A stretch of 64,000 nt of DNA. It comes from a virus (lineage: Duplodnaviria; Heunggongvirae; Uroviricota; Caudoviricetes). The notes below the pieces were generated by a model. That model searched no databases, was not told the origin of the DNA, and saw nothing but the letters and a program-made list of their open reading frames with translations. The position numbers and the translations under genes are program-made. The stretch lies in the IMG/VR virus record IMGVR_UViG_2541047759_000001. One strand, 5' to 3'. Below, in pieces: positions 4,331 through 62,467 of the stretch (its first letter is position 1; every line of letters begins with the position of its first letter).

Positions 4331-4898
4331 TATCGCGCCCTCAACAATGAGTTTTGTGATGCGGTGCCTGGTGCCTCCAGGTGACGTTAACCAGTTAACA
4401 ATTAACGCCGGATACAGAGAATCCACCCATAACACTGTTTTTGGTTTTAACTGTTCCGCGTGCGCTTAGCCGCATTCACCGCATCACAAAATTCACTTTA
4501 AAAAGGGCGGCAGAGCAGTCACGGAGTAAAACTGATACCGCCAAACGTCACCAGAAAATTGATAACAGAGGGCGTTGCAGTGGGGTTGTCACTTAAGCGT
4601 ATGGTCAACCTGACAACCCGGTGTCCTCAACGGGGGAAGGAATAACCCCGCCATACTTACCGCCGCGCCATTTCGCGGATTGCCACAACCGGAAGCGCAC
4701 GGTCGACGAAAATTTAACGACAGGCTATCTATGAACCAGCTACCTCGCCGTGCGCTTTCGCGTTATGGTCTGACTTTTCAGGGAAATATCCTTTCAGTAA
4801 ACTGTCAGTGCCGGATGCTCACCCGTGTCCGGCGCACGCACTCCACCTCACCCGTGGAGAACTCCTTAATTACCAACCTTAGCTTCGTTGGTTATCTA

Positions 4899-5117
4899 TT
4901 AACGCGGGTATGTAATCATTCTGGCAATGCTTAATGCCGCTGCTTTTTCCAGCCTGGTGATATCCTGCTCCAGAGCGGACAGATTTTCAGCCTGCTTAGC
5001 TCTGGCTTCATTAGCCCATTTCAGATCCTGCGCTGCATTAATTTTCTGGCGCATCCACTCATAAAGTTCATCATCGGTATAGTCTGGCGCGATGATGACG
5101 GGTTCTCGTTTCTGCAT
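4899..5117 (-). CDS. Hypothetical early-leftward-operon protein
   Basis: 72-aa ORF in leftward operon downstream of the cI-side regulatory region. Confidence 0.5.
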   Translation of the reverse strand: MQKREPVIIAPDYTDDELYEWMRQKINAAQDLKWANEARAKQAENLSALEQDITRLEKAAALSIARMITYPR

Positions 5118-13379: not shown

Positions 13380-13427
13380 CGTCATAACAATGGGCTTTTT
13401 ATGCCTGACGTTAGAAGAGTTTCTACA

Positions 13428-21925: not shown

Positions 21926-21937
21926 GGGCGGCGACCT
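21926..21937 (+). other. Lambda-type cosN (GGGCGGCGACCT) with flanking cosQ-like and cosB-like sequence
   Basis: Sequence 'CAGGTTACGGGGCGGCGACCTCGCGGGTTTTCGCTATTTATGAAAATTTTCCGG' matches the lambda cohesive-end region as I recall it; lies upstream of nu1. Confidence 0.85.
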
Positions 21938-51284: not shown

Positions 51285-51315
51285 GTGCAACGATCGGTGT
51301 AGTTAATGGTGTAGT
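51285..51315. repeat. attL direct repeat GTGCAACGATCGGTGTAGTTAATGGTGTAGT
   Basis: Identical 31-bp copy at 62437-62467; sits 26 bp upstream of the integrase gene. Confidence 0.8.
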
Positions 51316-51341
51316 TAATTGTGATGACCGGAATCAAAATT

Positions 51342-52571
51342 ATGAGCAGAGCACTTAACAAACTGAGCGATACACAGCTGAGGAAAATCAACGGCACACC
51401 CGCCCAAAAAACAGCCTTTCTTAATGACGGTGGAAACCTGAGCGTCAGGCATTCAACCAGTGGCCTTTTAACCTGGTATTTCACTTACAGGGCCGGAACG
51501 GGAAGGGGGGCACCACCGGAACGCATTAAGCTGGGAAATTATCCTGATCTGAGCCTGAAATCAGCCAGGGAAAAAGCCGCCCAGTGTCGCGCATGGCTGG
51601 CAGAGGGGAAAAATCCACGTCATGAAATGAATTACACCGTACAGGAAGCGTTAAAGCCGGTAACGGTTGGCGATGCGCTCACCTACTGGCTTGAGTCGTA
51701 CGCAAAGGAAAACCGCGTGGATTATGCCGCCCTGAAAAAGCGCCTTAATAATCACGTAATACAGCACATTGGTGCTATGCCGCTGGATAAATGCGAGCTA
51801 CGGCACTGGCTGGCCTGTTTTGACCAGGTGGCAAAGCGAACGCCTGTTACTGCCGGATTCTTGCTACAGACGTGCAAACAGGCGCTTAAGTTCTGCCGGA
51901 GGCGGCGCTATGCAATCAGCAACGTTCTTGATGATATGAGTGTGGCGGACGTTGGGAAAAAACCGGATATAAGCGAGCGCGTCTTAAGCACCAAAGAACT
52001 TGGCGAATTATTGCAGGCACTGGACAAAAAAATATTTTCCCCTTACTACGTCGCACTAATCCGCCTCCTGATTGTTTTCGGATGCCGGACGGTAGAACTG
52101 AGGTTATCGGAGATCAGCGAGTGGGATTTTACCGAAATGCTCTGGACCGTGCCGAAAGAACACAGCAAAACGAAGGTGGCAATATTCCGGCCCATACCGG
52201 AAGCAATACTGCCGTTCGTCACGCAGCTGGTGGAGCAGAACAGGCACACGGGCTTATTGCTGGGGGAAGTGAAACAGGAAACAAGCGTGTCGCAGTACGG
52301 CAGATTAGCGCACAGGAGGCTAAAACACCCTCACTGGTCACTGCATGACATCCGGCGCACCTTTACAACGATGCTGAACGATTTAGGCGTGGATCCTCAC
52401 GTCGTGGAGCAGCTTACAGGTCATCAGATGCCAGGGATGCAACGAGTCTATAACCATTCCCGTTATCTGGATGCGAAACGTGACGCGCTGGATATGTGGA
52501 CGGAGCGGTTAGGGATACTGGCGGGAACACATGAAAACGTAACCACATTGCCAATAGCCAGAGAAATATAA
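51342..52571 (+). CDS. int: Tyrosine integrase, P4-like family
   Basis: 409 aa; C-terminal 'HDIRRTF...GHQ...RVYNHSRY' catalytic region; adjacent to attL. Confidence 0.88.
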   Translation: MSRALNKLSDTQLRKINGTPAQKTAFLNDGGNLSVRHSTSGLLTWYFTYRAGTGRGAPPERIKLGNYPDLSLKSAREKAAQCRAWLAEGKNPRHEMNYTVQEALKPVTVGDALTYWLESYAKENRVDYAALKKRLNNHVIQHIGAMPLDKCELRHWLACFDQVAKRTPVTAGFLLQTCKQALKFCRRRRYAISNVLDDMSVADVGKKPDISERVLSTKELGELLQALDKKIFSPYYVALIRLLIVFGCRTVELRLSEISEWDFTEMLWTVPKEHSKTKVAIFRPIPEAILPFVTQLVEQNRHTGLLLGEVKQETSVSQYGRLAHRRLKHPHWSLHDIRRTFTTMLNDLGVDPHVVEQLTGHQMPGMQRVYNHSRYLDAKRDALDMWTERLGILAGTHENVTTLPIAREI

Positions 52572-52936
52572 TTTTTTTTGCGATTTTTCAGGATGCGGAC
52601 AACGTGAAACAACGAGACACAACGACGAACAACAAGGAACAAAATGGAACAACGGGTTAAAAATCAGCCATCGTAATAACCATTTGATTTTTATAGGTGT
52701 ACTGTTTTTTTATACACTGGCGAATCACTCTTAAAAATATGTAAAAAAGGCGTAAAAGTAAAATTTTATGCCTTTGCATCATAATGAATTAAAAGAGTTT
52801 TTATTCTCATTTCCCCTGCTTCTGTAAAACGACCGCCGCCAGTGTTTGCCATTCCACAAACACCCTGACACAATCCGACACAACCCAACCCAATAATCCA
52901 CCCAATGACTCTTTAAGAAACAACAAAGGGGGAATT

Positions 52937-53125
52937 GTGTTAAGCACAGATCGCTTTATACGTGAAAAAGAATGTCAGCAACTTACAGGCCTGAGCCGCT
53001 CATGTCGGTACCGCCTGGAAAAAGCCGGACAATTCCCATCACGGCGTAAGCTGGGCGGTCGTTTCGTTGGCTGGTCTTTATCCGAAGTTCTGGCATGGAA
53101 GGACAGCTGCGAGGCAGTTCACTAA
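52937..53125 (+). CDS. alpA: AlpA-family transcriptional regulator
   Basis: 62 aa; 'IREKECQQLTGLSRSCRYRLEKAGQFPSRRKLGGR...GWSLSEVLAW' typical of AlpA. Confidence 0.85.
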   Translation: MLSTDRFIREKECQQLTGLSRSCRYRLEKAGQFPSRRKLGGRFVGWSLSEVLAWKDSCEAVH

Positions 53126-53542
53126 TCAGGCTGGCGGCACACAGCCGCCACCCATCCACTAATACAGAGATCTAACCATGAATACTGGATATTCTCCCGA
53201 ACAAGGGCGGGGCTTCGTTCGTCCTGAAAAACAGAATCTGCAAAATTTTGCCGAAATTATTCCGGTTATTTCCGGCCTTACTGGCGGGAGTGAAACCAAT
53301 ATTGTTAACGCCAGAGCGTTGCAGATGTTTGATGATAAAAAGGGAGTAAATTTAACTTACACCCCTGACGGCAATCAGAATATGAGCATTATCTCTGAGT
53401 CAGGTTTCTACAAACTAATAAAAACAAAAAGCGCCCCGTTGCCGGAGCGCCTTTGTGAACAATTAACCTACTGCGCAAAAAATGAATCTGAGCAGTGGGA
53501 TTATATCAACCATGTGGAGAAGCGCCACAATTGCCGAATAAC

Positions 53543-53574
53543 GGGCAAAACAAAGGCCACCCGCTACGGTGGCC
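53543..53574 (-). terminator. Minus-strand intrinsic terminator ending the divergent regulator operon
   Basis: GGCCACC...GGTGGCC hairpin followed on the minus strand by TTTGTTTTGCCC. Confidence 0.6.
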
Positions 53575-53653
53575 CCTCGACACAAGCTACACGTTATCCC
53601 CAACGCATGAGCATTGCCAACAATGCCACATTTGCGGCTGGTGGGCAATGCAA

Positions 53654-53842
53654 TCAGTCAGGTTCAGTTCGTTGCCATACCTGCAATGAGCGCTTTTCCC
53701 TGTACTCTTTAAGGAATTGCTCAAGGGCAAAAGCACATGGCGCGAATCTTTCTGATTCATGCTCTATCTTTCTGCGCCGTCTTTTCCGTGCCGGTGATAA
53801 TGTTTTGGTCAATTCTTTATCGGTCATTGTGTTGTCCTGCAT
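53654..53842 (-). CDS. Small basic hypothetical protein
   Basis: 62-aa ORF downstream of the RHH gene on the minus strand; 'ARKRRRRK' basic patch. Confidence 0.4.
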   Translation of the reverse strand: MQDNTMTDKELTKTLSPARKRRRRKIEHESERFAPCAFALEQFLKEYREKRSLQVWQRTEPD

Positions 53843-53884
53843 AGCAATGCGCCGTAGTTACTCACACCACGGCGCTGGTGATGG

Positions 53885-54064
53885 TTACTCCTGCTCTTTG
53901 GCCTTGCGGCGCTGGCGGCGTTTGATCTCGCCTTGCATTGACGCAATGATGAATTGTGATGTGCTTTCGCCTGATTCTTTCACTGATTCCATGGCGTTTA
54001 CTATTTCGTGTGGTACACGAGCCTTTAGAGCTTGTGATTTTGCGTTTGTTGTACCCGTTGCCAT
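53885..54064 (-). CDS. Ribbon-helix-helix (Arc/CopG-like) DNA-binding protein
   Basis: 59 aa; 'LKARVPHEIVNAMESVKESGESTSQFIIASM' fits the RHH pattern; divergent from the rightward promoter. Confidence 0.6.
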   Translation of the reverse strand: MATGTTNAKSQALKARVPHEIVNAMESVKESGESTSQFIIASMQGEIKRRQRRKAKEQE

Positions 54065-54125
54065 TTCTATTCCTCTGTTGGATTGGTGGGGGACAGTATA
54101 CACAGAAAAAGCACAAATAAAACCC

Positions 54126-54166
54126 TTGACGTGGGCCACACCTAAAGCATATAGTGGGCCACACCT
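54126..54166 (+). promoter_or_regulatory. Rightward promoter with two GTGGGCCACACCT operator-like direct repeats
   Basis: TTGACG at 54126-54131, 18-bp spacer, TATAGT at 54150-54155; 13-bp repeats at 54131-54143 and 54154-54166. Confidence 0.55.
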
Positions 54167-54263
54167 TGAGATTATCAAGGTGCATAAATGCAAAGCCCCG
54201 CAAGTGTCGTTACCACTCGCAGGGCTTCTAACCACCAACGATAGCGAAAGTATCGAGGTAGCT

Positions 54264-54464
54264 ATGTTAAATCATACCACACACCCGCAAGGGCGGGACT
54301 CGCACAACCTGAATAAATACATCTGGCGTTTTATCGCCCTGAGCACGGCACAACCGCGCGTGATTACCATTGAGGCCACCAGCGAACAGGAAGCACGCCA
54401 GCAATCTCCGGCTGGCTGCGTGATGGTATTTGCTGCCCGTATTCGTCAGGGGGTAGGCTTATGA
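54264..54464 (+). CDS. Small hypothetical protein, first gene of the rightward satellite operon
   Basis: GAGGTAG RBS 5 nt upstream of ATG at 54264; 66 aa. Confidence 0.5.
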   Translation: MLNHTTHPQGRDSHNLNKYIWRFIALSTAQPRVITIEATSEQEARQQSPAGCVMVFAARIRQGVGL

Positions 54465-54691
54465 GCCAGGAAATCACACTACAACAGGCAGCAGAACGCG
54501 CCCACCAAATCGAAGTTATTTGCGCACTGGCAGAGGATTACCCTGGCATGATGACCGACAGCGAATCAGGGGCAATCATCGGCTTACTTAAACGCCTTAG
54601 CGGTGAGGTCTGCGTATTCCTGAGCGATGAACAGGAAAGAAGAACGCTTATTTCTAACGAAAAAAAATGCGGAGGGGTACATGTGCAATAA
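54461..54691 (+). CDS. Small hypothetical protein
   Basis: 76-aa ORF, start overlapping the upstream stop. Confidence 0.5.
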   Translation: MSQEITLQQAAERAHQIEVICALAEDYPGMMTDSESGAIIGLLKRLSGEVCVFLSDEQERRTLISNEKKCGGVHVQ

Positions 54692-55115
54692 AACCACACC
54701 GGACGCAGCCGCCGCCGCACTCACTACGCTGATGCACGCGCTTATTGATATTGAATGCACGGCAGAGCTTGCGCAGGGAGAAGAACAGAAAGACCGGACA
54801 CAGTTCGCCCTGGAATGTATCCGATACATCGCAACGCGGTCGCTGAATGACGCTAAAAATATTCTTGTTGCTGATTGTGAAAATGGGGGGGTTATGCGTG
54901 ATGATCGTTTTAATTCCCTGAAACAGGAATTTTCCGGCGTTCCTGATGATGCGGCTGATGCGCTTTCGTCAATGCCAGAGCTTATTAGAGCGGATTTTTT
55001 CTTACTTTCCACGAGAGAATATAAATCAACGGGGCTTGATGTACTGAATATCGCCGCCGATTATGCTGATTTCGTGACAGAGGTTATTTTAAGAAAAACG
55101 ACGGACGGGGATTAA
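54681..55115 (+). CDS. Hypothetical protein
   Basis: GGAGGGG RBS before ATG at 54681; 144 aa. Confidence 0.55.
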   Translation: MCNKTTPDAAAAALTTLMHALIDIECTAELAQGEEQKDRTQFALECIRYIATRSLNDAKNILVADCENGGVMRDDRFNSLKQEFSGVPDDAADALSSMPELIRADFFLLSTREYKSTGLDVLNIAADYADFVTEVILRKTTDGD

Positions 55116-55116
55116 T

Positions 55117-55350
55117 ATGCGTGATATTTACCACGAAACAATAGACCGCGCATTTCTTGCACTTTCTCACAGTGAAAATATGTTGGAAATATTGCGCATA
55201 TGTCTTGAAACGCTTGGAGATAATGAACGTGATAAACAGAAATCAAGGATTGTCACGGCATTAATAACGCTTCTTGAGCCTGTAATAAATGAGTTGCAGG
55301 AAATAGAGACATTACACGACCAGTATAAAGCGCCCCACACCGGAGAATAA
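55117..55350 (+). CDS. Small hypothetical protein
   Basis: 77-aa ORF starting 2 nt after the upstream stop. Confidence 0.5.
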   Translation: MRDIYHETIDRAFLALSHSENMLEILRICLETLGDNERDKQKSRIVTALITLLEPVINELQEIETLHDQYKAPHTGE

Positions 55351-55355
55351 AAATA

Positions 55356-55655
55356 ATGAAACTTAAATATTCTGGCTTAACTGCCAGTGGCAAAACTCGC
55401 ACTAAATTCATGCGCGGTGATATTTACCGCGATAAGTACGGCGGCACGGTAATGATTAAGGGCGTGGAGGAACGGCGCGTAACCTACCGTCGTGAAGGCT
55501 ACGAATATGATTGCGTGATGCCTGTTTATCAGTTCGACCGTGATTTTTCTCTTGTGCAGGCCGTACCGCGTAACGTGCCCACCAGCAGGGAGAAAGCACG
55601 CGCCAATATTCAGAAGATGAAAACCATGATTAAAGGATTCAGGGGTAAAAAATGA
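55356..55655 (+). CDS. Small basic hypothetical protein
   Basis: 99-aa ORF overlapping the primase start. Confidence 0.5.
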   Translation: MKLKYSGLTASGKTRTKFMRGDIYRDKYGGTVMIKGVEERRVTYRREGYEYDCVMPVYQFDRDFSLVQAVPRNVPTSREKARANIQKMKTMIKGFRGKK

Positions 55656-57406
55656 AACTGGCACCGAACGTAAAACAGCAGTCACGCGGCATAAAACACA
55701 AAGGAACAGAAGTCATTATTTTTGCGGGTAGTGATGCCTGGGCACACGCGAAACAATGGCAGGAACATGATGCGCGTATGGCCGGAGATAATGAGCCTCC
55801 TGTGTGGCTTGGGGAGCAGCAGTTATCAGAACTGGATAAGCTGCAAATTGTGCCGGAAGGCAGAAAATCCGTGCGCATATTCAGGGCCGGATATCTTGCG
55901 CCAGTAATGATAAAGGCGATTGGCCAGAAGCTGGCGGCGGCAGGCGTACAGGATGCAAATTTTTACCCTGATGGTATGCACGGTCAGAAGGTGGAGAACT
56001 GGCGCGAATATCTGGCCCGTGAGCGCCAGAATCTTTCTGATGGTCTGGTCATTGAGCTTCCGGTAAAGCAAAAGGCGCAACTTTCGCAGATGGCGGACAG
56101 TGAGCGCGCGCAGCTGCTTGCCGATCGCTTTGATGGCGTTTGCGTACATCCTGAAAGTGAAATCGTTCACGTATGGCGCGGCGGGGTATGGTGTCCGGTC
56201 AGCACAATGGAACTTAGCCGCGAAATGGTGGCGATCTATTCAGAGCACAGGGCCACTTTCAGCAAGCGCGTAATCAATAACGCCGTGGAAGCGTTAAAAG
56301 TTATTGCCGAACCAATGGGCGAGCCGTCCGGCGATTTGCTGCCGTTCGCCAATGGTGCGCTTGACCTGAAAACGGGGGGATTTTCCCCGCACACGCCGGA
56401 GAACTGGATCACCACGCACAACGGCATTGAGTACACGCCACCAGCACCAGGGGAGAACATCCGCGATAACGCGCCAAACTTTCATAAATGGCTTGAGCAC
56501 GCAGCCGGAAAAGACCCGCGCAAGATGATGCGTATATGTGCCGCGCTGTACATGATTATGGCGAACCGGTACGACTGGCAGATGTTTATTGAGGCCACCG
56601 GAGACGGCGGGAGCGGTAAAAGTACATTCACGCACATAGCCAGCCTTCTGGCAGGGAAACAGAACACGGTAAGCGCTGAAATGACATCGCTTGATGATGC
56701 TGGTGGACGTGCGCAGGTTGTCGGGAGTCGTCTTATCGTCCTGGCTGACCAGCCGAAATATACAGGCGAAGGAACGGGCATCAAGAAAATCACGGGCGGT
56801 GACCCCGTGGAAATTAACCCGAAATACGAAAAGCGTTTCACGGCTGTAATCAGGGCGGTGGTGCTGGCGACCAACAATAACCCGATGATATTCACCGAAC
56901 GGGCCGGAGGTGTGGCACGTCGTCGCGTGATTTTCCGTTTCGACAATATCGTCAGTGAGGCCGAAAAAGACAGGGAGCTACCGGAAAAGATCGCGGCTGA
57001 AATCCCTGTCATTATCCGCCGATTGCTGGCGAACTTTACCGACCCTGAGAAGGCACGGGCTTTACTACTGGAACAGCGTGACGGTGATGAAGCACTGGCA
57101 ATAAAGCAACAGACGGATCCGGTTATTGAGTTTTGCCAGTTCCTGAATTTTCTGGAGGAAGCGCGCGGCCTGATGATGGGGGGCGGTGGCGATTCAGTGA
57201 AGTACACGACCAGGAACAGCCTTTACCGCGTCTATCTGGCGTTTATGGCATACGCAGGCAGGAGCAAACCGCTAAACGTAAATGACTTTGGAAAGGCTAT
57301 GAAGCCTGCCGCAAAAGTTTACGGACATGAATATATTACGCGGAAAGTTAAGGGGGTAACGCAGACTAACGCAATAACAACAGACGAGTGCGACGCGTTT
57401 TTATAA
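55652..57406 (+). CDS. Primase-helicase (P4 alpha / D5-type, P-loop NTPase)
   Basis: 584 aa; Walker A 'GDGGSGKST'; N-terminal primase-like region; followed by the iteron origin. Confidence 0.85.
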   Translation: MKLAPNVKQQSRGIKHKGTEVIIFAGSDAWAHAKQWQEHDARMAGDNEPPVWLGEQQLSELDKLQIVPEGRKSVRIFRAGYLAPVMIKAIGQKLAAAGVQDANFYPDGMHGQKVENWREYLARERQNLSDGLVIELPVKQKAQLSQMADSERAQLLADRFDGVCVHPESEIVHVWRGGVWCPVSTMELSREMVAIYSEHRATFSKRVINNAVEALKVIAEPMGEPSGDLLPFANGALDLKTGGFSPHTPENWITTHNGIEYTPPAPGENIRDNAPNFHKWLEHAAGKDPRKMMRICAALYMIMANRYDWQMFIEATGDGGSGKSTFTHIASLLAGKQNTVSAEMTSLDDAGGRAQVVGSRLIVLADQPKYTGEGTGIKKITGGDPVEINPKYEKRFTAVIRAVVLATNNNPMIFTERAGGVARRRVIFRFDNIVSEAEKDRELPEKIAAEIPVIIRRLLANFTDPEKARALLLEQRDGDEALAIKQQTDPVIEFCQFLNFLEEARGLMMGGGGDSVKYTTRNSLYRVYLAFMAYAGRSKPLNVNDFGKAMKPAAKVYGHEYITRKVKGVTQTNAITTDECDAFL

Positions 57407-57419
57407 TTTTTTGTAATTG

Positions 57420-57650
57420 CTGTCTACCCTGTCTACCTGAGTAAAGAAAAATACATTTAATTCAGTGCATTAAGTTAGGTAGATAGCCTTTTTTTACTGT
57501 CTACCCACTATCTACCCTCTCTACCTGATTTTACCTGAATCAGACAGGGAGGTAGACACGGGGTAGATAGTGGATAAAAGCACTCTACCCCGCTGAAAGC
57601 CGCGCCATTACTGGCATGAGGGCCACTAAGGTAGATAAGGTAGACAAGGG
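57420..57650. repeat. Satellite origin of replication: about 11 copies of the GGTAGA(C/T) iteron in both orientations
   Basis: Copies of GTCTACC / GGTAGAC / GGTAGAT immediately downstream of the primase-helicase gene. Confidence 0.75.
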
Positions 57651-57694
57651 GAGGCACAACTCAAAACTTTTTAAACGAGGGGGTAAAAATAAAT

Positions 57695-57973
57695 ATGCAC
57701 ACTTCAGGGAAATTTAATAAATCACTCAAAAAACGCAGAGACAGAACAGAACCGAAATATCGCGCGTTAGACATGACAGAGCACGCTTTAAAGGTGGCAA
57801 TCAGAACGATAGACCGCCACGCGGGGGAAGGATACGCGAAAGCACATCCCGAACTGATAAGCGCATTCATGACCACGACGGCGGCAAATTTTGCCACGCT
57901 GACAGAGCGGGAGATTGCCGAAGCGGAACAGGTAACAACCATCAACGTTAAAACCGGAGAGGTGGAATCATGA
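57695..57973 (+). CDS. Hypothetical protein
   Basis: GAGGGGG RBS upstream; 92 aa. Confidence 0.45.
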   Translation: MHTSGKFNKSLKKRRDRTEPKYRALDMTEHALKVAIRTIDRHAGEGYAKAHPELISAFMTTTAANFATLTEREIAEAEQVTTINVKTGEVES

Positions 57974-58392
57974 CAGCACAGATAGCAGCTTACGGGCGGC
58001 TGGTGGACGACCCGCAGGTAAAACAGACCAGCAAGGGCACACCGATGACGCTGGCGCGTATGGCGGTCCCCCTTCCGTGCAGCCAGGCAGATGACGGAAC
58101 GGCGACGATGTGGTTATCCGTCCTGGCATTTGGCAGACAGGCCGAAGCACTGGAAAGGCACCGCAAGGGTGAACTCCTGAGCGTGGCGGGTAACATGCAG
58201 ATCAGCCAGTGGACTGGGCAGAACGGAGAAACGCGGCAGGGCTGGCAGGTTATCGCAGACAGTGTAATCAGTGCGCGAACGGCGCGACTGGGCGGCAAAA
58301 AAGGTCAACAGGGCCAGGCTACTGACGCGCTGAACAGGGCAAAACAACAGGCGGGGAATGATGATCCGTACGGGGATAACATACCGTTTTAA
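57970..58392 (+). CDS. ssb: Single-stranded DNA-binding protein
   Basis: OB-fold N-terminus, Gly/Gln-rich linker, acidic C-terminal tip 'DDPYGDNIPF'. Confidence 0.85.
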   Translation: MTAQIAAYGRLVDDPQVKQTSKGTPMTLARMAVPLPCSQADDGTATMWLSVLAFGRQAEALERHRKGELLSVAGNMQISQWTGQNGETRQGWQVIADSVISARTARLGGKKGQQGQATDALNRAKQQAGNDDPYGDNIPF

Positions 58393-58408
58393 GCGACGAG
58401 AGACAGAA

Positions 58409-58430
58409 GCCGGAGCAATCCGGCTTTTTT
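58409..58430 (+). terminator. Intrinsic terminator after ssb
   Basis: GCCGGAGCAATCCGGC hairpin followed by TTTTTT. Confidence 0.75.
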
Positions 58431-58807
58431 ACGGGGCCTCCTGGCGGGGTGGGCCTGAACACGGGGCGGGAAGCGCGGAAAAAAGCGCATTTTTGTGATT
58501 TTATCGTCATCATCATCATGAGCGTAATTTATTGTTTTTAATTGTTTTGATGCAAAAAAGATGATGGTTGTGGTTAATTTTTGTTCGACATCTTTGCAGG
58601 CAGATAAAAAAGCCCGATAAGGTCAGAGGTGGCTTATCGGGCTTTTGCATATGAGGCTTTTTGGTGCACTGACACACATGATCGGGATAATCATTTCATA
58701 ATTTGCAACACAACTCAATATCATTGCACAAAATGCAATCCTGATTATAATCAGAGCTGGATGAACATCCAGTTATGATTTTTTAAGTCAAAGAGGAATT
58801 TCTTACT

Positions 58808-59014
58808 ATGGCTGAAGAGAAAAAAGGCGGTATTTCGGTGTACATAAGCCCCGACATCGTGAAGGCGCTCAAGGAACGCCACCAGCAGAACGTAAAAGCA
58901 GGCATTGCGGCAGGACTTGATCCGCTGGCGATGGTTGAGCCGTCAACAGGCTGGCAGGTACGCGCCTATTTACGCGCGGCGCTGGGTATGAATCAGGTTC
59001 ACGGGGGTGAATAA
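58808..59014 (+). CDS. Small hypothetical protein preceding the satellite capsid gene
   Basis: AAGAGGAA RBS; 68 aa; stop overlaps the capsid gene start. Confidence 0.5.
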   Translation: MAEEKKGGISVYISPDIVKALKERHQQNVKAGIAAGLDPLAMVEPSTGWQVRAYLRAALGMNQVHGGE

Positions 59015-60069
59015 TGACAGTAAAAGCAATGGCACTTAACACTAACCAGCTTTTTGCGTACCTGAATCGCGGGGATATTGCGGAATTTAAATTCAGTCCG
59101 CTGTTTACCACGCTGTTTTTCCCGAACGTGGCGACATTCAGCACGCAAAACATCATGCTGGATACCCTGGACATTGAAGAAGTCACCATGTCGGCGTTTT
59201 GTTCGCCTATGGTGGGTAGCCAGGTTCAGCGCGATAAAGGGTACGAAACCAGCACGATTAAACCTGGCTACATGAAGCCAAAGCACGAAATCGATCCAAC
59301 GAAAACCATCATGCGCATGGCTGGAGAAGATCCGGCACAGCTTAACGACCCTACCTATCGCCGTATGCGCCTGATTACTGGCAATATGCGCCGCCAGATA
59401 AACGCCATAAAAGCGCGCGTGGAATGGCTGGCGGTAAATGCGGTAACGACCGGAAAAAACATCATTGAAGGCGAAGGCATAGAGCGCTATGAAATCGACT
59501 GGAAGATACCGGAAAAAAACATCATAGAGCAGGCCGACGGGAAAAAATGGTCAGAGCAGGACAAAGAAACCCACGATCCAATCTATGATATCGAACTATA
59601 CGCCGATCAGGCTGGTTGCCCCGCAAACGTCATGATTATGGGCGCTGAGGTATGGCGAACGTTACGCAGCTTTAAAAAATTCCGTGAGCTGTACGATCTT
59701 TCCCGTGGTTCAGAGTCCGCCGCAGAGCTGGCCTGTAAAAACCTGGGCGAAGTGGTGAGCTTTAAAGGCTATCTGGGCGATATTGCCCTTATCGTCTATT
59801 CCGGCAAATACACTGACAGCGACGGCACAGAAAAATATTTCCTTGAGCCTGATTTGCTTGTCCTGGGCAACACCAACAATAAAGGGCTGGTGGCCTATGG
59901 TGCGATTATGGATCAGGACGCAGTAAGAACGGGCGCAACGCAAAACATGTTTTACCCGAAAAACTGGATTGAGGACGGCGATCCGGCGATTGAGTACGTG
60001 CAGACGCACAGCGCACCGCAGCCGGTTCCGGCAGATATTCGCAAATTTGTTACCGTCAAAATTGGTTAA
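59014..60069 (+). CDS. Major capsid protein, divergent lambda E homologue
   Basis: Shared blocks with the prophage E: 'EDPAQLNDPxYRRxRxIT', 'NIIEQADGKKWSEQD', 'VVSFKGYxGDxAxxV', 'DGTEK...LVLGNT'. Confidence 0.85.
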   Translation: MTVKAMALNTNQLFAYLNRGDIAEFKFSPLFTTLFFPNVATFSTQNIMLDTLDIEEVTMSAFCSPMVGSQVQRDKGYETSTIKPGYMKPKHEIDPTKTIMRMAGEDPAQLNDPTYRRMRLITGNMRRQINAIKARVEWLAVNAVTTGKNIIEGEGIERYEIDWKIPEKNIIEQADGKKWSEQDKETHDPIYDIELYADQAGCPANVMIMGAEVWRTLRSFKKFRELYDLSRGSESAAELACKNLGEVVSFKGYLGDIALIVYSGKYTDSDGTEKYFLEPDLLVLGNTNNKGLVAYGAIMDQDAVRTGATQNMFYPKNWIEDGDPAIEYVQTHSAPQPVPADIRKFVTVKIG

Positions 60070-60080
60070 CGGGGGATTCT

Positions 60081-60416
60081 ATGGACACTCCATACATTGA
60101 GTTATTTGCAGGCAGTCAGCAGGTCGCCACGACGCTGGTACATTTTGCCGCTGATGCTGGCGTTATTCAGGAATTTACCCCGCTGATGCTGGCGGACAAT
60201 GGCGAGTTTAAGCCGTGGGATGGTAAGGAATCTGGCAAGGCTGTTTATCTGACCTCGTACCCTGTGGACACGTCAAAGCAGAAATCAGCACAGTGTTACA
60301 AGACGGGGATATTCAATATTGCCGCCGTTAACTGGCCTGAGAGCGTCGACACCGATGCGAAAAAATGCGCCGCCTTTGCGGGTTCCGGCGTATCCGTTCA
60401 GCCGCTGGCCCGATAA
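60081..60416 (+). CDS. Head decoration protein, divergent lambda D homologue
   Basis: 111 aa immediately after the E-like gene; 'VNWPESVDTDAKKCAAFAGS' resembles the D C-terminus. Confidence 0.7.
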   Translation: MDTPYIELFAGSQQVATTLVHFAADAGVIQEFTPLMLADNGEFKPWDGKESGKAVYLTSYPVDTSKQKSAQCYKTGIFNIAAVNWPESVDTDAKKCAAFAGSGVSVQPLAR

Positions 60417-60428
60417 GCAGGGGGAACG

Positions 60429-60842
60429 ATGGCAACGAATGAAAGCATCATGACGCTACCGCTGGCGAGTAAATTTAAAGCCGAAGCGCGGGCAATGGCT
60501 GACAGAGGTTTATCAACCTATGAGGCCGTATATCAACTAAACAAACTGGAAGAGCAGGACAAGCCGCGCGCTGATGCGATTATGGCGCTTCATGAGCATA
60601 AAGACTATCAGCCGCTGTTACGTGCAATGGCAAACGTGCCATGTATTAGCGTCGATAATGCTCGTGAAATCCTGAACATGACCATAGAGCAGGAGCGCCC
60701 AAAGGTTGCACCAGAGCTTACCGCAGCCTTTGAAAACTTTATGGACATGCACAGCCCGCAAGCCGTATCAGCTGGCATGGCATACGATGGCAGAAACCAG
60801 GGCGATGACGGCGACATCGATCGCATACTGAAAACCATCTGA
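60429..60842 (+). CDS. Scaffold-like protein related to the C-terminal (Nu3-like) domain of the prophage C gene
   Basis: 'ADAIMALHEHKDYQPLLRAMANVPCISVDNAREILNM' and 'FENFMDMHSPQAV' parallel the C-protein repeats and its C-terminus. Confidence 0.6.
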   Translation: MATNESIMTLPLASKFKAEARAMADRGLSTYEAVYQLNKLEEQDKPRADAIMALHEHKDYQPLLRAMANVPCISVDNAREILNMTIEQERPKVAPELTAAFENFMDMHSPQAVSAGMAYDGRNQGDDGDIDRILKTI

Positions 60843-60848
60843 GACAAG

Positions 60849-60870
60849 GCCGGAGAAATCCGGCTTTTTT
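60849..60870 (+). terminator. Intrinsic terminator after the scaffold-like gene
   Basis: GCCGGAGAAATCCGGC hairpin followed by TTTTTT. Confidence 0.75.
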
Positions 60871-60902
60871 ACGGGTCCTTCCTGGAATTATGGCCCGTTA
60901 CG

Positions 60903-60914
60903 GGGCGGCGACCT
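60903..60914 (+). other. Satellite cos copy 1: cosN GGGCGGCGACCT with cosQ-like upstream and partial cosB
   Basis: 'GGGTCCTTCCTGG...GTTACGGGGCGGCGACCTCGCGGGTTTTCGCTATTTATGA' is near-identical to the prophage cos at 21926; no ATGTCCGG repeats downstream. Confidence 0.8.
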
Positions 60915-61003
60915 CGCGGGTTTTCGCTATTTATGACGTTTTTCCGTGAAGGTGACACCACCACCACTTGATTAATATTTAACCATGCAGTTAAGGTAAC
61001 ATT

Positions 61004-61438
61004 ATGATTGATAAAGCTTGTTTTGTAAGTCAGCAGGAAATAGCTGAACATTTCAAGGTTAACAGAACCACTATTCGCGCATGGACCAAACAGGGGATGC
61101 CGTATCTTAATGCGGATCGCGGAAAGTCTGGCGGTTATCACATCGGGCATACATTGCTTTGGTCTTCAGGTAAAAGCCGTCTTGAGGCCATCAGATATCA
61201 CGTAGAAACCAGTGCGCTGGAAAAAATTATGTTTGCCAGGCTGCTTTCATCTGAGCGTGACGAGTACTCCAGTGAAGAAACAGAACATCGATTTGATGAA
61301 GGTTTGCAGATTTACGGCTATTCACCGGAAGATGTGAGCAAGGCACGAAATAAAATGGCTGGCTTTCTGGCTGGGTGGCGTCATGCCGTAAGCGTTCGCC
61401 GTGCCAGCATGGAGCAATCAGCCGATACAGAACAGTAA
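61004..61438 (+). CDS. Nu1-like small terminase or packaging-redirection protein with N-terminal HTH
   Basis: AAGG RBS; 'QQEIAEHFKVNRTTIRAWTKQGMPY' parallels the lambda Nu1 N-terminal HTH; lies between two inverted cos copies. Confidence 0.6.
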   Translation: MIDKACFVSQQEIAEHFKVNRTTIRAWTKQGMPYLNADRGKSGGYHIGHTLLWSSGKSRLEAIRYHVETSALEKIMFARLLSSERDEYSSEETEHRFDEGLQIYGYSPEDVSKARNKMAGFLAGWRHAVSVRRASMEQSADTEQ

Positions 61439-61641
61439 AGCCGATAACTTGTTAATCACTCGCAGCAATGCATGTGATTTGTGCACACTTTCGGTTAACT
61501 GGTTCGATGTCCGGTTTTAGTGTCTGTTTTTTGCGCATGTCCGGTTCATGGAAAGCATGTTTTTATATTTTTCATATGGTTAACTTGCAGAGAAACCGGA
61601 CATGGATCCCGAAAAATTTTCATAAATAGTGAAAACGCGCG

Positions 61642-61653
61642 AGGTCGCCGCCC
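61642..61653 (-). other. Satellite cos copy 2, inverted: cosN plus full cosB-like region with three ATGTCCGG repeats
   Basis: Reverse complement of 61530-61690 matches the prophage cos from cosQ through 'CATGTCCGGTTTCTCT' and beyond. Confidence 0.75.
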
Positions 61654-61717
61654 CGTAACGGGCCATAATTCCAGGAAGGACCCGACGACACCAGACTATC
61701 AGAACGATGGGGGCACA

Positions 61718-61999
61718 ATGACAGAAGCCGAAATACTGCGATTAATCCGCCGCGTTGCCGGAATCAGCCAGCAGGCCGACGAACAGACCACGCAGCCGGA
61801 CAGCGTGACCGCCGAAAATTATGTTCGTGTGGTTGCTGAGGTGATTCGCCGTAATGGTATCCAGCTTAATGATGTGGATATGCGCAACATACGGATCCGC
61901 GTTCTTGAAATGCTGGCCTACAATCGCCGCGTGGCACTGTATCGGGAAACGGAGAAAATTACGTACCACTGGAAGAAGCCGGAGCGGTTGCGGCGGTAA
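61718..61999 (+). CDS. Hypothetical protein
   Basis: 93-aa ORF starting at ATG 61718 just after cos copy 2. Confidence 0.45.
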   Translation: MTEAEILRLIRRVAGISQQADEQTTQPDSVTAENYVRVVAEVIRRNGIQLNDVDMRNIRIRVLEMLAYNRRVALYRETEKITYHWKKPERLRR

Positions 62000-62170
62000 C
62001 TGGTTGATATTTTCGAAATTCGCCAGCGGCGAACATCGGGGAAACCAGCCTAACCCGTTGATATTTTCGGGAACCTCAAATTGAAGAGGTCGGAAACATA
62101 ACCCGTCATATTCTGGATGCTGATAATTACCACGCAGCCCATTAAGGCCTAACCCGTTGATTCTTCCACA
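62000..62170. repeat. Four direct repeats of about 19 bp (TAACCCGTTGATATTTTCG-like) near attR
   Basis: Copies at about 62001, 62050, 62098 and 62149; followed by palindromes at 62174-62227. Confidence 0.6.
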
Positions 62171-62436
62171 ATCCCCCATTGGGGGAGGCTGGGCGGCCTG
62201 CTGTGGGCTTTTCCACCATTGGTGGAAAGGCGCACATCTGGATCATCATTACGGTGATCAAGGGTATGTAAAACCCACCAGCCTGATTGACATTTAACCG
62301 GAAAAAAGCCAGGTAGCCCCGTTATGGGGATCCCCATATCGACATTAACGCCCCTCATGAATTGGCGCGCTTCCCCCTGGAAAGATGACCCGCCTGTATA
62401 TTTCTTGTGTCTATTTGTTCCACGTTGTTTCATACA

Positions 62437-62467
62437 GTGCAACGATCGGTGTAGTTAATGGTGTAGT
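62437..62467. repeat. attR direct repeat GTGCAACGATCGGTGTAGTTAATGGTGTAGT
   Basis: Identical to 51285-51315; weaker similarity extends about 25 bp further upstream. Confidence 0.8.

What the first reader, a model, noticed from the sequence alone, without database searches (positions are those of the whole stretch)
57420..57650. Satellite replication origin built from a 7-bp iteron
About eleven copies of GGTAGA(C/T) in both orientations lie directly downstream of the primase-helicase gene, which is the expected primase-origin layout for an autonomously replicating satellite.
Basis: seen in the sequence. Interest (0 to 1): 0.45.

Follow-up and report, generated by a model that had tools for sequence, protein, structure and literature searches.

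The report
Known satellite (PICI) replication origin
The repeat cluster is real and is the replication origin of an 11-kb phage-satellite island almost identical to EcCICFT073 of E. coli CFT073, whose origin was mapped and tested in 2018, so the finding is correct but already known.

Summary
Observation confirmed. Eleven GGTAGA cores lie at 57423-57644 and only ten in the other 63.8 kb (Poisson P about 3e-24). Nine carry C/T at position 7. Ten of them form five pairs mirrored exactly about 57533/57534.

Interpretation supported. The region is the intergenic space 3' of the initiator-helicase gene of an island bounded by 31-bp att repeats (51285-62467) between roxA and phoQ. It is 97% identical to the same space in EcCICFT073. 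Fillol-Salom et al. 2018 drew iterons flanking an AT-rich stretch there. They showed that a pri-ori clone needs both the gene and this region; their delta-ori primers remove the exact homologue of window 57411-57717.

Further support: the protein's residues 488-579 match the solved origin-binding domain of phage P4 alpha (1ka8). Across about 90 related loci the iteron sequence changes with that domain and not with the rest of the protein.

Caveats. The invariant unit is a 6-bp core with purine flanks, not a 7-mer. The protein lacks P4's primase domain, so "primase" is an annotation label and not a shown activity.

Small additions: a P4-ori-like half, two separable halves, and an unexplained conserved block in the GC-rich spacer.

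Novelty: already known. Interest is low.

The parts
51285..62467 (+). The whole island (EcCICFT073-like PICI) between roxA and phoQ. It is bounded by a 31-bp direct repeat, GTGCAACGATCGGTGTAGTTAATGGTGTAGT, at 51285-51315 and 62437-62467.
   Evidence: Repeat found. Gene content and flanks come from the annotation of the 100% identical HM670 locus and the 96% identical CFT073 locus.
55652..57406 (+). Gene for the 584-aa Pri-Rep initiator-helicase. It has D5_N, an SF3 ATPase (DUF5906) and a C-terminal origin-binding domain.
   Evidence: Pfam hits. 40% identity to P4 alpha residues 324-762, E 7e-113. Residues 194-432 match SaPI5 PriRep5 (7ola), E 1e-14.
57113..57388 (+). Codons 488-579: winged-helix origin-binding domain, the inferred reader of the iterons.
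   Evidence: phmmer hit to PDB 1ka8, the P4 alpha origin-binding domain, E 7e-7. This domain co-varies with the iteron type across loci.
57407..57694 (.). Intergenic region that forms the origin. The published EcCICFT073 delta-ori deletion removes the homologue of 57411-57717.
57423..57437 (-). Outer left iteron pair (cores 57423-57428 and 57432-57437, 9 bp apart).
   Evidence: Near-invariant in 45 aligned origins (>=90% majority in every core column).
57438..57477 (.). 40-bp AT-rich spacer (9 G/C of 40 by direct count): the presumed DNA-unwinding element.
   Evidence: GC 0.25-0.30. AT-richness is kept while the sequence diverges in relatives and in P4 ori.
57478..57483 (+). Single inverted iteron on the inner side of the AT-rich spacer.
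57500..57525 (-). Three iterons at 11- and 9-bp spacing (cores 57500-57505, 57511-57516 and 57520-57525).
57533..57534 (.). Dyad centre of the origin. Five iteron pairs are mirrored exactly about it. The sixth partner (about 57542-57548, AGACAGG) is degenerate.
   Evidence: (I1, I2, I8).
57551..57567 (+). Two iterons (cores 57551-57556 and 57562-57567) that mirror 57511 and 57500.
57584..57589 (-). Single inverted iteron that mirrors 57478.
57590..57629 (.). 40-bp GC-rich spacer (24 G/C of 40), the mirror partner of the AT-rich spacer.
   Evidence: GC 0.60.
57593..57614 (+). Conserved non-iteron block CTGAAAGCCGCGCCATTACTGG. Its function is unknown.
   Evidence: Invariant or near-invariant in 45 distinct origins. 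Recognisable as GCTGCGTCATTACTGG in L083, which has a different iteron.
57630..57644 (+). Outer right iteron pair (cores 57630-57635 and 57639-57644).
57663..57676 (+). Conserved A-tract/T-tract AAAACTTTTTAAAC, just before the ribosome-binding site of the next gene (ATG at 57695).
   Evidence: Invariant in the E. coli set. AAAACTTTT also follows the last iteron pair in Serratia, Morganella, L073 and L083 and in each P4 crr unit.

Best explanation
This is the replication origin of an EcCICFT073-type phage-inducible chromosomal island. When a helper phage induces the island, the island makes its 584-aa Pri-Rep protein. The protein's C-terminal winged-helix domain (residues about 488-579) binds the RGGTAGANRR iterons. 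The iterons lie as two mirror-image arrays, spaced mostly one helical turn apart. Protomers that accumulate on the arrays assemble SF3 helicase rings and open the 40-bp AT-rich spacer (57438-57477). The helicase loads itself without a loader, probably as two rings facing opposite ways, and replication of the excised circle follows.

Shown: the repeat anatomy, its conservation, the homology of the protein domains, and the co-variation of iteron with binding domain. By publication, and on the 97% identical CFT073 sequence, the region and the gene are both needed for plasmid maintenance, and pri is needed for island replication.

Inferred: which domain contacts which bases, where melting starts, the double-ring loading, and who makes the primers.
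For: (1) Clustering and dyad symmetry are far beyond chance.

(2) The region is 97% identical to the EcCICFT073 intergenic region, with every core kept. PMC6092414 Fig. 2a/2b and its text identify that region as ori and show that both rep and ori are required. Primer mapping shows the delta-ori deletion equals window 57411-57717.

(3) In 45 aligned distinct origins, 38 of 66 core columns are invariant against 28 of 170 non-core columns. The mean majority fraction is 0.92 against 0.71.

(4) Residues 488-579 match the solved P4 alpha origin-binding domain, 1ka8, E 7e-7. Residues 194-432 match SaPI5 PriRep5, 7ola. PMC9371898 states that SaPI Reps read penta- or hexanucleotide iterons with a C-terminal winged helix, that 6-12 iterons lie just 3' of rep around an AT-rich centre, and that the helicases load themselves.

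(5) Co-variation across loci:
- L085 and L086 proteins are 99% identical except in this domain (90%), and their iterons differ (GTGTTCAT versus GTATACAT).
- L079 shares the window's N-terminal domain at 95% but has a 33% identical binding domain and P4-type CTGTTCACC iterons.
- L073 has an unrelated N-terminal domain, a 58% identical binding domain, and GGTAGA iterons.
- Domains of TGTTCA-type loci are 44-52% identical to P4's, against about 32% for GGTAGA-type loci.

(6) The same layout (two iterons, AT-rich spacer, one inverted iteron, three iterons) is annotated as the origin in phage P4.
Against: No experiment was done on this exact sequence. In the published assay, deleting ori 'significantly reduced' colony numbers rather than abolishing them. 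That assay removes the whole 300-bp region and does not test the iterons themselves. Binding of Pri-Rep to GGTAGA has not been shown, to my knowledge or in the papers searched. The binding domain and ori are physically adjacent, so part of their association could reflect linkage and not recognition. The L085/L086 pair and the P4-type correspondence argue against linkage alone.
Confidence: 0.93

Rival explanations
1. Only the left half (57421-57525, with the AT-rich spacer) is the true origin. The right half (57551-57676, with the GC-rich spacer, the conserved block and the A/T tract) is a separate cis-acting enhancer comparable to P4 crr, which happens to sit next to it here. This refines the main explanation and does not replace it.
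For: The left half has the same layout as the annotated P4 ori, and it aligns with it better than shuffles do (z 4.9). P4 crr lies directly 3' of the alpha gene and ends in an A/T tract, like the right half. In L073-L076 and L083/L084 the two halves occur in the opposite order and about 60-70 bp apart, so they behave as separable modules. The right spacer carries a conserved block that the left one lacks.
Against: Alignment of the right half with the crr units is not significant (z 1.8 and -0.2). The right half is an exact positional mirror of the left, as expected for a single bidirectional origin that loads two helicase rings. SaPI origins are described as one unit with iterons on both sides.
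Confidence: 0.25
2. The repeats are mainly operator sites through which a regulator, possibly Pri-Rep itself, controls transcription of the downstream genes (57695 onwards: 92-aa ORF, ssb, capsid-like genes). They would not be an origin.
For: The cluster sits directly upstream of the next gene. Iteron-binding initiators of plasmids often autoregulate (general knowledge). The conserved AAAACTTTTTAAAC and ribosome-binding site lie at its right edge.
Against: No plus-strand sigma-70-like promoter and no terminator were found at 57300-57800, so read-through from the upstream operon is likely. The paper describes unidirectional transcription activated by AlpA acting at the alpA promoter. The published delta-ori phenotype is a replication or maintenance defect with rep expressed from an arabinose promoter. 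No GGTAGA cluster occurs near other promoters of the island.
Confidence: 0.04
3. The repeats are a packaging (cos or pac) recognition site or a partition site of the satellite.
For: Repeated protein-binding sites are typical of cosB and pac sites and of centromere-like sites (general knowledge).
Against: The exact lambda-type cosN sequence GGGCGGCGACCT lies elsewhere in the island, at 60903 and 61642. This matches the two functional cos sites reported for EcCICFT073. No partition genes are annotated in the island.
Confidence: 0.01

Closest known systems
Replication origin of EcCICFT073 and other Gram-negative PICIs (Fillol-Salom et al. 2018, PMC6092414)
   Same: Same chromosomal site (roxA-phoQ). 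Same gene order. The 6-kb core is 96% identical and the ori region 97% identical, with all 11 cores kept. It lies immediately 3' of pri-rep with iterons around an AT-rich stretch, and function was tested by deleting exactly this region.
   Different: There are a few substitutions in spacers and at degenerate iteron positions. The window's element lacks the PerC-family gene of CFT073 and has a fused 144-aa ORF where CFT073 has two. Nothing differs in kind.
SaPI origins and Rep/PriRep self-loading helicases (PMC9371898 and the work it cites)
   Same: The layout matches: 6-12 short iterons directly 3' of rep, an AT-rich centre, and opposed orientations on the two sides. A C-terminal winged helix reads the iterons and the helicase loads itself. 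The helicase core shows sequence similarity to PriRep5, 7ola, E 1e-14.
   Different: Iteron sequence, host and helper differ. Similarity is limited to the ATPase region. Binding and melting have been shown in vitro for SaPI Reps, not for this protein.
Phage P4 alpha protein with its ori and crr
   Same: Window residues 141-579 are 40% identical to alpha 324-762 and include the solved origin-binding domain 1ka8. The left half of the window's origin has the same layout as the annotated P4 ori. The 9-mer CTGTCTACC differs from P4's CTGTTCACC at two bases. Relatives of the window's protein use P4-type TGTTCAC iterons.
   Different: P4 splits its sites into ori and crr about 4.7 kb apart, whereas here they are contiguous and palindromic. 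The iteron core differs. P4 alpha's N-terminal 323 residues, which carry its primase, are absent and replaced by an unrelated 140-aa domain.
Core origins of SV40 and papillomaviruses (my own knowledge, not tested here)
   Same: An SF3 helicase-initiator with its own origin-binding domain recognises inverted arrays of a 5-6-bp motif beside an AT-rich element. It assembles as two rings.
   Different: This is an analogy of mechanism only. No sequence relationship of the origins was examined, and the binding-domain folds differ.

Membership tests
Gram-negative PICI origin (EcCICFT073 type) | Lies immediately 3' of the replication initiator gene (pri-rep) | tested here: met
   The first core lies 17 bp after the stop codon at 57404-57406.
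Gram-negative PICI origin (EcCICFT073 type) | Two sets of iterons flank an AT-rich region | tested here: met
   Two cores lie to the left and nine to the right of the 40-bp spacer at 57438-57477, which has GC of about 0.23-0.30.
Gram-negative PICI origin (EcCICFT073 type) | Sits in an island with int, alpA, unidirectional genes and its own att site, and lacks genes for a complete virion of its own | tested here: met
   int is at 51321-52571. The AlpA-like excisionase/regulator is at 52937-53125 (phrog_2790). The att repeats are at 51285 and 62437. The major genes from int to the capsid-like genes run on the plus strand, with two small minus-strand ORFs between alpA and the Icd-like gene; no terminase, portal or tail genes are annotated.
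Gram-negative PICI origin (EcCICFT073 type) | Supports replication that depends on the cognate Pri-Rep | not testable with these tools
   Published for the 97% identical CFT073 region (PMC6092414 Fig. 2b). Not tested on this allele.
SaPI-type Rep/ori system | The initiator is a helicase with a C-terminal winged-helix domain that reads the iterons | tested here: inconclusive
   The domain is homologous to 1ka8, and it co-varies with the iterons. Direct binding has not been shown.
P4 ori/crr replicon | Alpha-type helicase plus origin-binding domain | tested here: met
   40% identity over 440 residues, E 7e-113. 1ka8 hit with E 7e-7.
P4 ori/crr replicon | Type-1 iteron TGTTCACC | tested here: not met
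   The core here is GGTAGA, giving the 9-mer CTGTCTACC.
P4 ori/crr replicon | Bipartite cis elements: ori, plus a distant crr made of two 120-bp direct repeats | tested here: not met
   Here there is a single contiguous palindromic cluster and no 120-bp direct repeat.
P4 ori/crr replicon | N-terminal primase domain of alpha | tested here: not met
   The alignment starts at alpha residue 324. Window residues 1-140 have no Pfam hit. TIGR01613 scores 106.5, below its cut-off of 108.7.

The most novel reading that the evidence does not exclude
The origin may be a composite of two separable modules. One is a P4-ori-like melting module (two iterons, AT spacer, one plus three iterons). The other is a second module carrying a strongly conserved non-iteron block (CTGAAAGCCGCGCCATTACTGG) and an A/T tract. 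That second module would be the site of a distinct step, for example primer synthesis or recruitment of a host factor. Its role may be tied to the fact that this Pri-Rep lacks a recognisable primase domain and may rely on host DnaG. [quoted passage not shown]
Probability: 0.3. Interest if true: 0.35.

Novelty: already known. Interest (0 to 1): 0.14.

Why it matters
The finding adds little as a discovery. The origin of this island family was described and functionally tested in 2018, and this window carries a near-identical copy that is also present in hundreds of sequenced E. coli genomes.

Its use is as a clean annotation. It marks the cis-acting site needed to build PICI-based delivery vectors and to predict which islands can cross-replicate.

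The side results give cheap, testable handles on how these self-loading helicases choose their origins:
- the iteron type tracks the C-terminal binding domain;
- the L085/L086 pair localises a specificity switch to about ten residues;
- the two halves can be rearranged;
- a conserved block in the origin has no assigned role;
- it is doubtful that the 'primase' is a primase.

Tried and rejected
- **Whole-window motif counts.** They are not significant on their own. Only the clustering is.
- **Promoter and terminator scan of 57300-57800.** It gave one weak minus-strand promoter-like hit and no terminator, so there is no support for a promoter or operator reading.
- **Rfam at a permissive threshold.** It returned only sub-threshold eukaryotic miRNA hairpin models, which reflect the palindrome. 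Rejected.
- **The ssDNA fold.** It is more stable than shuffles (z -4.95), but this follows from the mirrored iterons and is not evidence for a hairpin origin.
- **Published reverse primer rep-2c.** It gave no hit at up to 3 mismatches, because the stored text lacks one G. Its position was taken from the alignment instead.
- **First protein search.** It returned only sequences at least 99% identical to the query and was useless for diversity.
- **The genome-contig scan.** It gave only 3 loci. Diversity came from E. coli genomes and IMG/VR.
- **Literature search for TGTTCACC.** It found only unrelated primers. The P4 record's own annotation was used instead.
- **Alignment of the right half with P4 crr.** Not significant, so homology of the right half to crr is not claimed.
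- **DnaA-box-like TTATCCACT at 57568-57576.** It is not conserved in relatives. Rejected as functional.
- **Single-sequence AlphaFold model of residues 1-150.** It had pLDDT 60.6. Foldseek against the PDB gave nothing with E below 0.01 and TM of 0.37 or less. The N-terminal domain therefore stays unassigned.
- **My initial recollection that EcCICFT073 is a capsid-forming PICI.** It was wrong. The cf-PICI preprint calls it a classical PICI and names EcCIEDL933 as the prototype.

Full report
**1. What is in the sequence**

Positions 57407-57694 are the intergenic space between a 584-aa gene (55652-57406, plus strand) and a 92-aa ORF that starts at 57695 and is followed by ssb. GGTAGA occurs 21 times in the 64-kb window counting both strands, and 11 of those lie between 57423 and 57644.

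The stricter GGTAGAY matches 9 of the 11; the other two carry G at position 7. From the rate elsewhere in the window, 0.036 copies are expected in 231 bp, so Poisson P is about 3e-24. No other hexamer clusters more than six times anywhere in the window.

Six copies are on the minus strand (57423, 57432, 57500, 57511, 57520, 57584) and five on the plus strand (57478, 57551, 57562, 57630, 57639). Neighbours within a group are 9-11 bp apart.

**2. Finer anatomy**

- Ten of the eleven copies form five opposite-strand pairs mirrored exactly about 57533/57534. The eleventh (57520) faces a degenerate copy near 57542-57548. In 200,000 random placements of 11 sites, none gave five mirrored pairs.
- The two 40-bp spacers that mirror each other differ sharply. 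Positions 57438-57477 are AT-rich (9 G/C of 40) and 57590-57629 are GC-rich (24 of 40).
- Across 49 distinct related origins (512 sites), the six core bases never vary. Position 7 is C, G or T in about equal parts. Positions -1, +8 and +9 are purines. The unit is therefore about RGGTAGANRR.

**3. What element this is**

The 6 kb around the finding is 100% identical to a chromosomal locus of E. coli HM670 and 96% identical to one of E. coli CFT073. In both strains it lies between roxA and phoQ.

The gene order in the annotation is:
- integrase;
- a small helix-turn-helix regulator (phrog_2790, 'excisionase and transcriptional regulator');
- an Icd-like gene, small ORFs and a DUF4222 gene;
- the 'DNA primase family protein';
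- ssb;
- a major-capsid-E-like gene and a decoration-like gene.

A 31-bp direct repeat at 51285 and 62437 bounds the island, which is 11.2 kb long. This is the element called EcCICFT073, the prototype phage-inducible chromosomal island of Gram-negative bacteria (PMC6092414). The later cf-PICI preprint treats it as a 'classical' PICI.

**4. What is already published**

PMC6092414 states that the region immediately 3' of the replication initiator gene is the origin. [quoted passage not shown] 2a).

The authors cloned the EcCICFT073 rep gene plus the putative ori into a temperature-sensitive vector. The clone gave colonies at 44 °C, the rep mutant did not, and deleting ori 'significantly reduced' colony numbers (Fig. 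2b). The paper also reports that a pri-rep deletion cuts island transfer from about 1e5 to about 50, and that AlpA-driven uncontrolled replication needs pri.

I took the primers from the supplement and placed them on CFT073:
- the forward primer maps to L002 11610-11630;
- the delta-ori reverse primer maps to 13392-13412, which equals window 57390-57410;
- the ori reverse primer maps to the start of the next ORF, about window 57697-57717 (alignment; the stored primer text lacks one G, so one search found nothing).

The published delta-ori therefore removes the homologue of window 57411-57717. The window and CFT073 are 97% identical there, and all eleven cores are unchanged.

**5. Independent support from comparison**

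The 288-bp region is found in 564 of 5426 complete E. coli genomes, always on the chromosome, at identities down to about 73%.

In an alignment of 45 distinct versions, 38 of 66 core columns are invariant against 28 of 170 other columns (examples). The cores are islands of conservation in diverging spacers.

More distant relatives keep the layout but change the repeat:
- CTGTTCACC in L079-L082;
- TGTTCAC or TGTTCAT in Serratia (L004), Morganella (L005) and L083/L084;
- GTGTTCAT in L085 and four others;
- GTATACAT in L086 and three others.

**6. Who reads the repeats**

Residues 488-579 of the protein match PDB 1ka8, the origin-binding domain of phage P4 alpha (E 7e-7). Residues 194-432 match 7ola (E 1e-14), which is PriRep5 of SaPI5. 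The whole of residues 141-579 is 40% identical to P4 alpha 324-762 (E 7e-113).

The iteron type follows this C-terminal domain and not the rest of the protein:

| Comparison | Rest of protein | Binding domain | Iterons |
|---|---|---|---|
| GGTAGA-type E. coli proteins vs window | N-terminal 150 aa 46-99% identical | 82-100% identical | same (GGTAGA) |
| L079 vs window | N-terminal domain 95% identical | 33% identical | P4-type CTGTTCACC |
| L073 vs window | N-terminal domain unrelated | 58% identical | same (GGTAGA) |
| L085 vs L086 | 99% identical | 90% identical | differ at two bases |

The binding domains of TGTTCA-type loci are 44-52% identical to P4's, whose annotated type-1 repeat is TGTTCACC. 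GGTAGA-type domains are about 32% identical to P4's.

This is co-variation, not proof of contact. The domain and the origin are also neighbours on the DNA, so linkage contributes to their association.

**7. Most likely mechanism**

The evidence comes from the anatomy, the homologies and what is published for SaPI Reps. PMC9371898 reports ATP-independent iteron binding through the C-terminal winged helix, melting at the AT-rich centre, no loader, and probably two hexamers.

From these I infer three steps. Pri-Rep protomers bind the mirrored arrays. They open the AT-rich spacer. Two SF3 rings then self-assemble and move apart.

No plus-strand promoter and no terminator were found in the region. 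Transcription from the upstream operon probably runs through the origin.

**8.

'7-bp iteron' is too narrow on one side and too strict on the other, as section 2 shows.

'Primase-helicase' is an annotation label. The homology to P4 alpha begins after alpha's primase part. The window's own 140-aa N-terminal domain has no Pfam hit even at E 10. It falls in a PHROG of unknown function. A low-confidence model of it (pLDDT 60.6) found no structural neighbour. TIGR01613 scores just below its cut-off. Whether this protein primes is open.

**9. Comparison with P4**

Read in the direction of the alpha gene, the annotated P4 ori is two iterons, a 35-bp AT-rich spacer, one inverted iteron and three iterons. 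This is the same layout as window 57421-57525. The two align better than shuffles do (z 4.9), and the 9-mers differ at two bases.

P4 crr sits directly 3' of alpha and ends in an A/T tract like the window's right half, but its alignment with the right half is not significant. In L073-L076 and L083/L084 the two halves occur in the reverse order, 60-70 bp apart, so they behave as modules.

I found no paper in the searchable library that notes this. Only PMC6092414 discusses PICI iterons in E. coli. [quoted passage not shown]

**10. Unexplained**

CTGAAAGCCGCGCCATTACTGG (57593-57614) in the GC-rich spacer is as conserved as the iterons. It survives in L083, where the iteron differs.

AAAACTTTTTAAAC (57663-57676) is invariant in the E. 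coli set. Its AAAACTTTT part recurs after the last iteron pair in distant relatives and in P4 crr. Neither block has a known role.

**11. Rivals**

- A packaging site is excluded. The exact cosN lies at 60903 and 61642, matching the two functional cos sites reported for EcCICFT073.
- A purely regulatory operator array has no promoter to act on. It also conflicts with the published replication phenotype, which was obtained with rep under an arabinose promoter.
- Known RNA families are absent.

**12. Verdict**

The feature is already known: it is a near-identical copy of a published, tested origin. Interest is low. The residual value lies in the binding-domain/iteron co-variation, the modular halves, the conserved block and the doubtful primase label.

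Noticed in passing
window 57593-57614: The block CTGAAAGCCGCGCCATTACTGG in the GC-rich spacer of the origin is conserved as strongly as the iterons in 45 distinct origins. It is still recognisable in L083, whose iteron is different. No function is known for it.
   Followed up: partly
window 57663-57676; also L004 about 4985-5000, L005 about 4600-4615, L013 (P4) crr units: An A-tract/T-tract (AAAACTTTTT) follows the last iteron pair in this origin, in distant relatives and in each P4 crr unit.
   Followed up: partly
window 55652-56071 (residues 1-140 of the 'primase'): The N-terminal domain has no recognisable primase signature and replaces the primase part of P4 alpha. It behaves as a swappable module: 95% identical in L079, which has a very different helicase and binding domain, and unrelated in L073. 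Whether the protein is a primase is doubtful.
   Followed up: partly
L085 vs L086 (IMG/VR contigs), about 330 bp downstream of the initiator gene: These two proteins are 99% identical except in the C-terminal binding domain (90%), and they sit next to origins with different iterons (GTGTTCAT versus GTATACAT). This is a natural specificity switch confined to about ten residues.
   Followed up: partly
L073-L076, L083, L084: The two halves of the origin occur in the reverse order: the half with the GC spacer comes first, then a 60-70-bp gap, then the half with the AT spacer. The halves are therefore separable modules.
   Followed up: partly
window 60903-60914 (+), 61642-61653 (-) and 21926-21937 (+): Exact lambda-type cosN GGGCGGCGACCT occurs twice near the right end of the island. 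It occurs once in a lambda-like prophage (Nu1/A terminase, portal) further upstream in the same window. That prophage is a likely resident helper.
   Followed up: partly
window 51285-51315 and 62437-62467: A 31-bp direct repeat, GTGCAACGATCGGTGTAGTTAATGGTGTAGT, bounds the island. These are the att sites.
   Followed up: yes
window 57568-57576 (minus strand): There is a DnaA-box-like TTATCCACT next to an iteron. It is not conserved in related origins, so it is probably fortuitous.
   Followed up: yes
window 54682-55116 vs L002 10682-11117: The window has one 144-aa annotated ORF where CFT073 has two ORFs of about 73 aa each. CFT073 also carries a PerC-family regulator gene after ssb, which this island lacks.
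   Followed up: no
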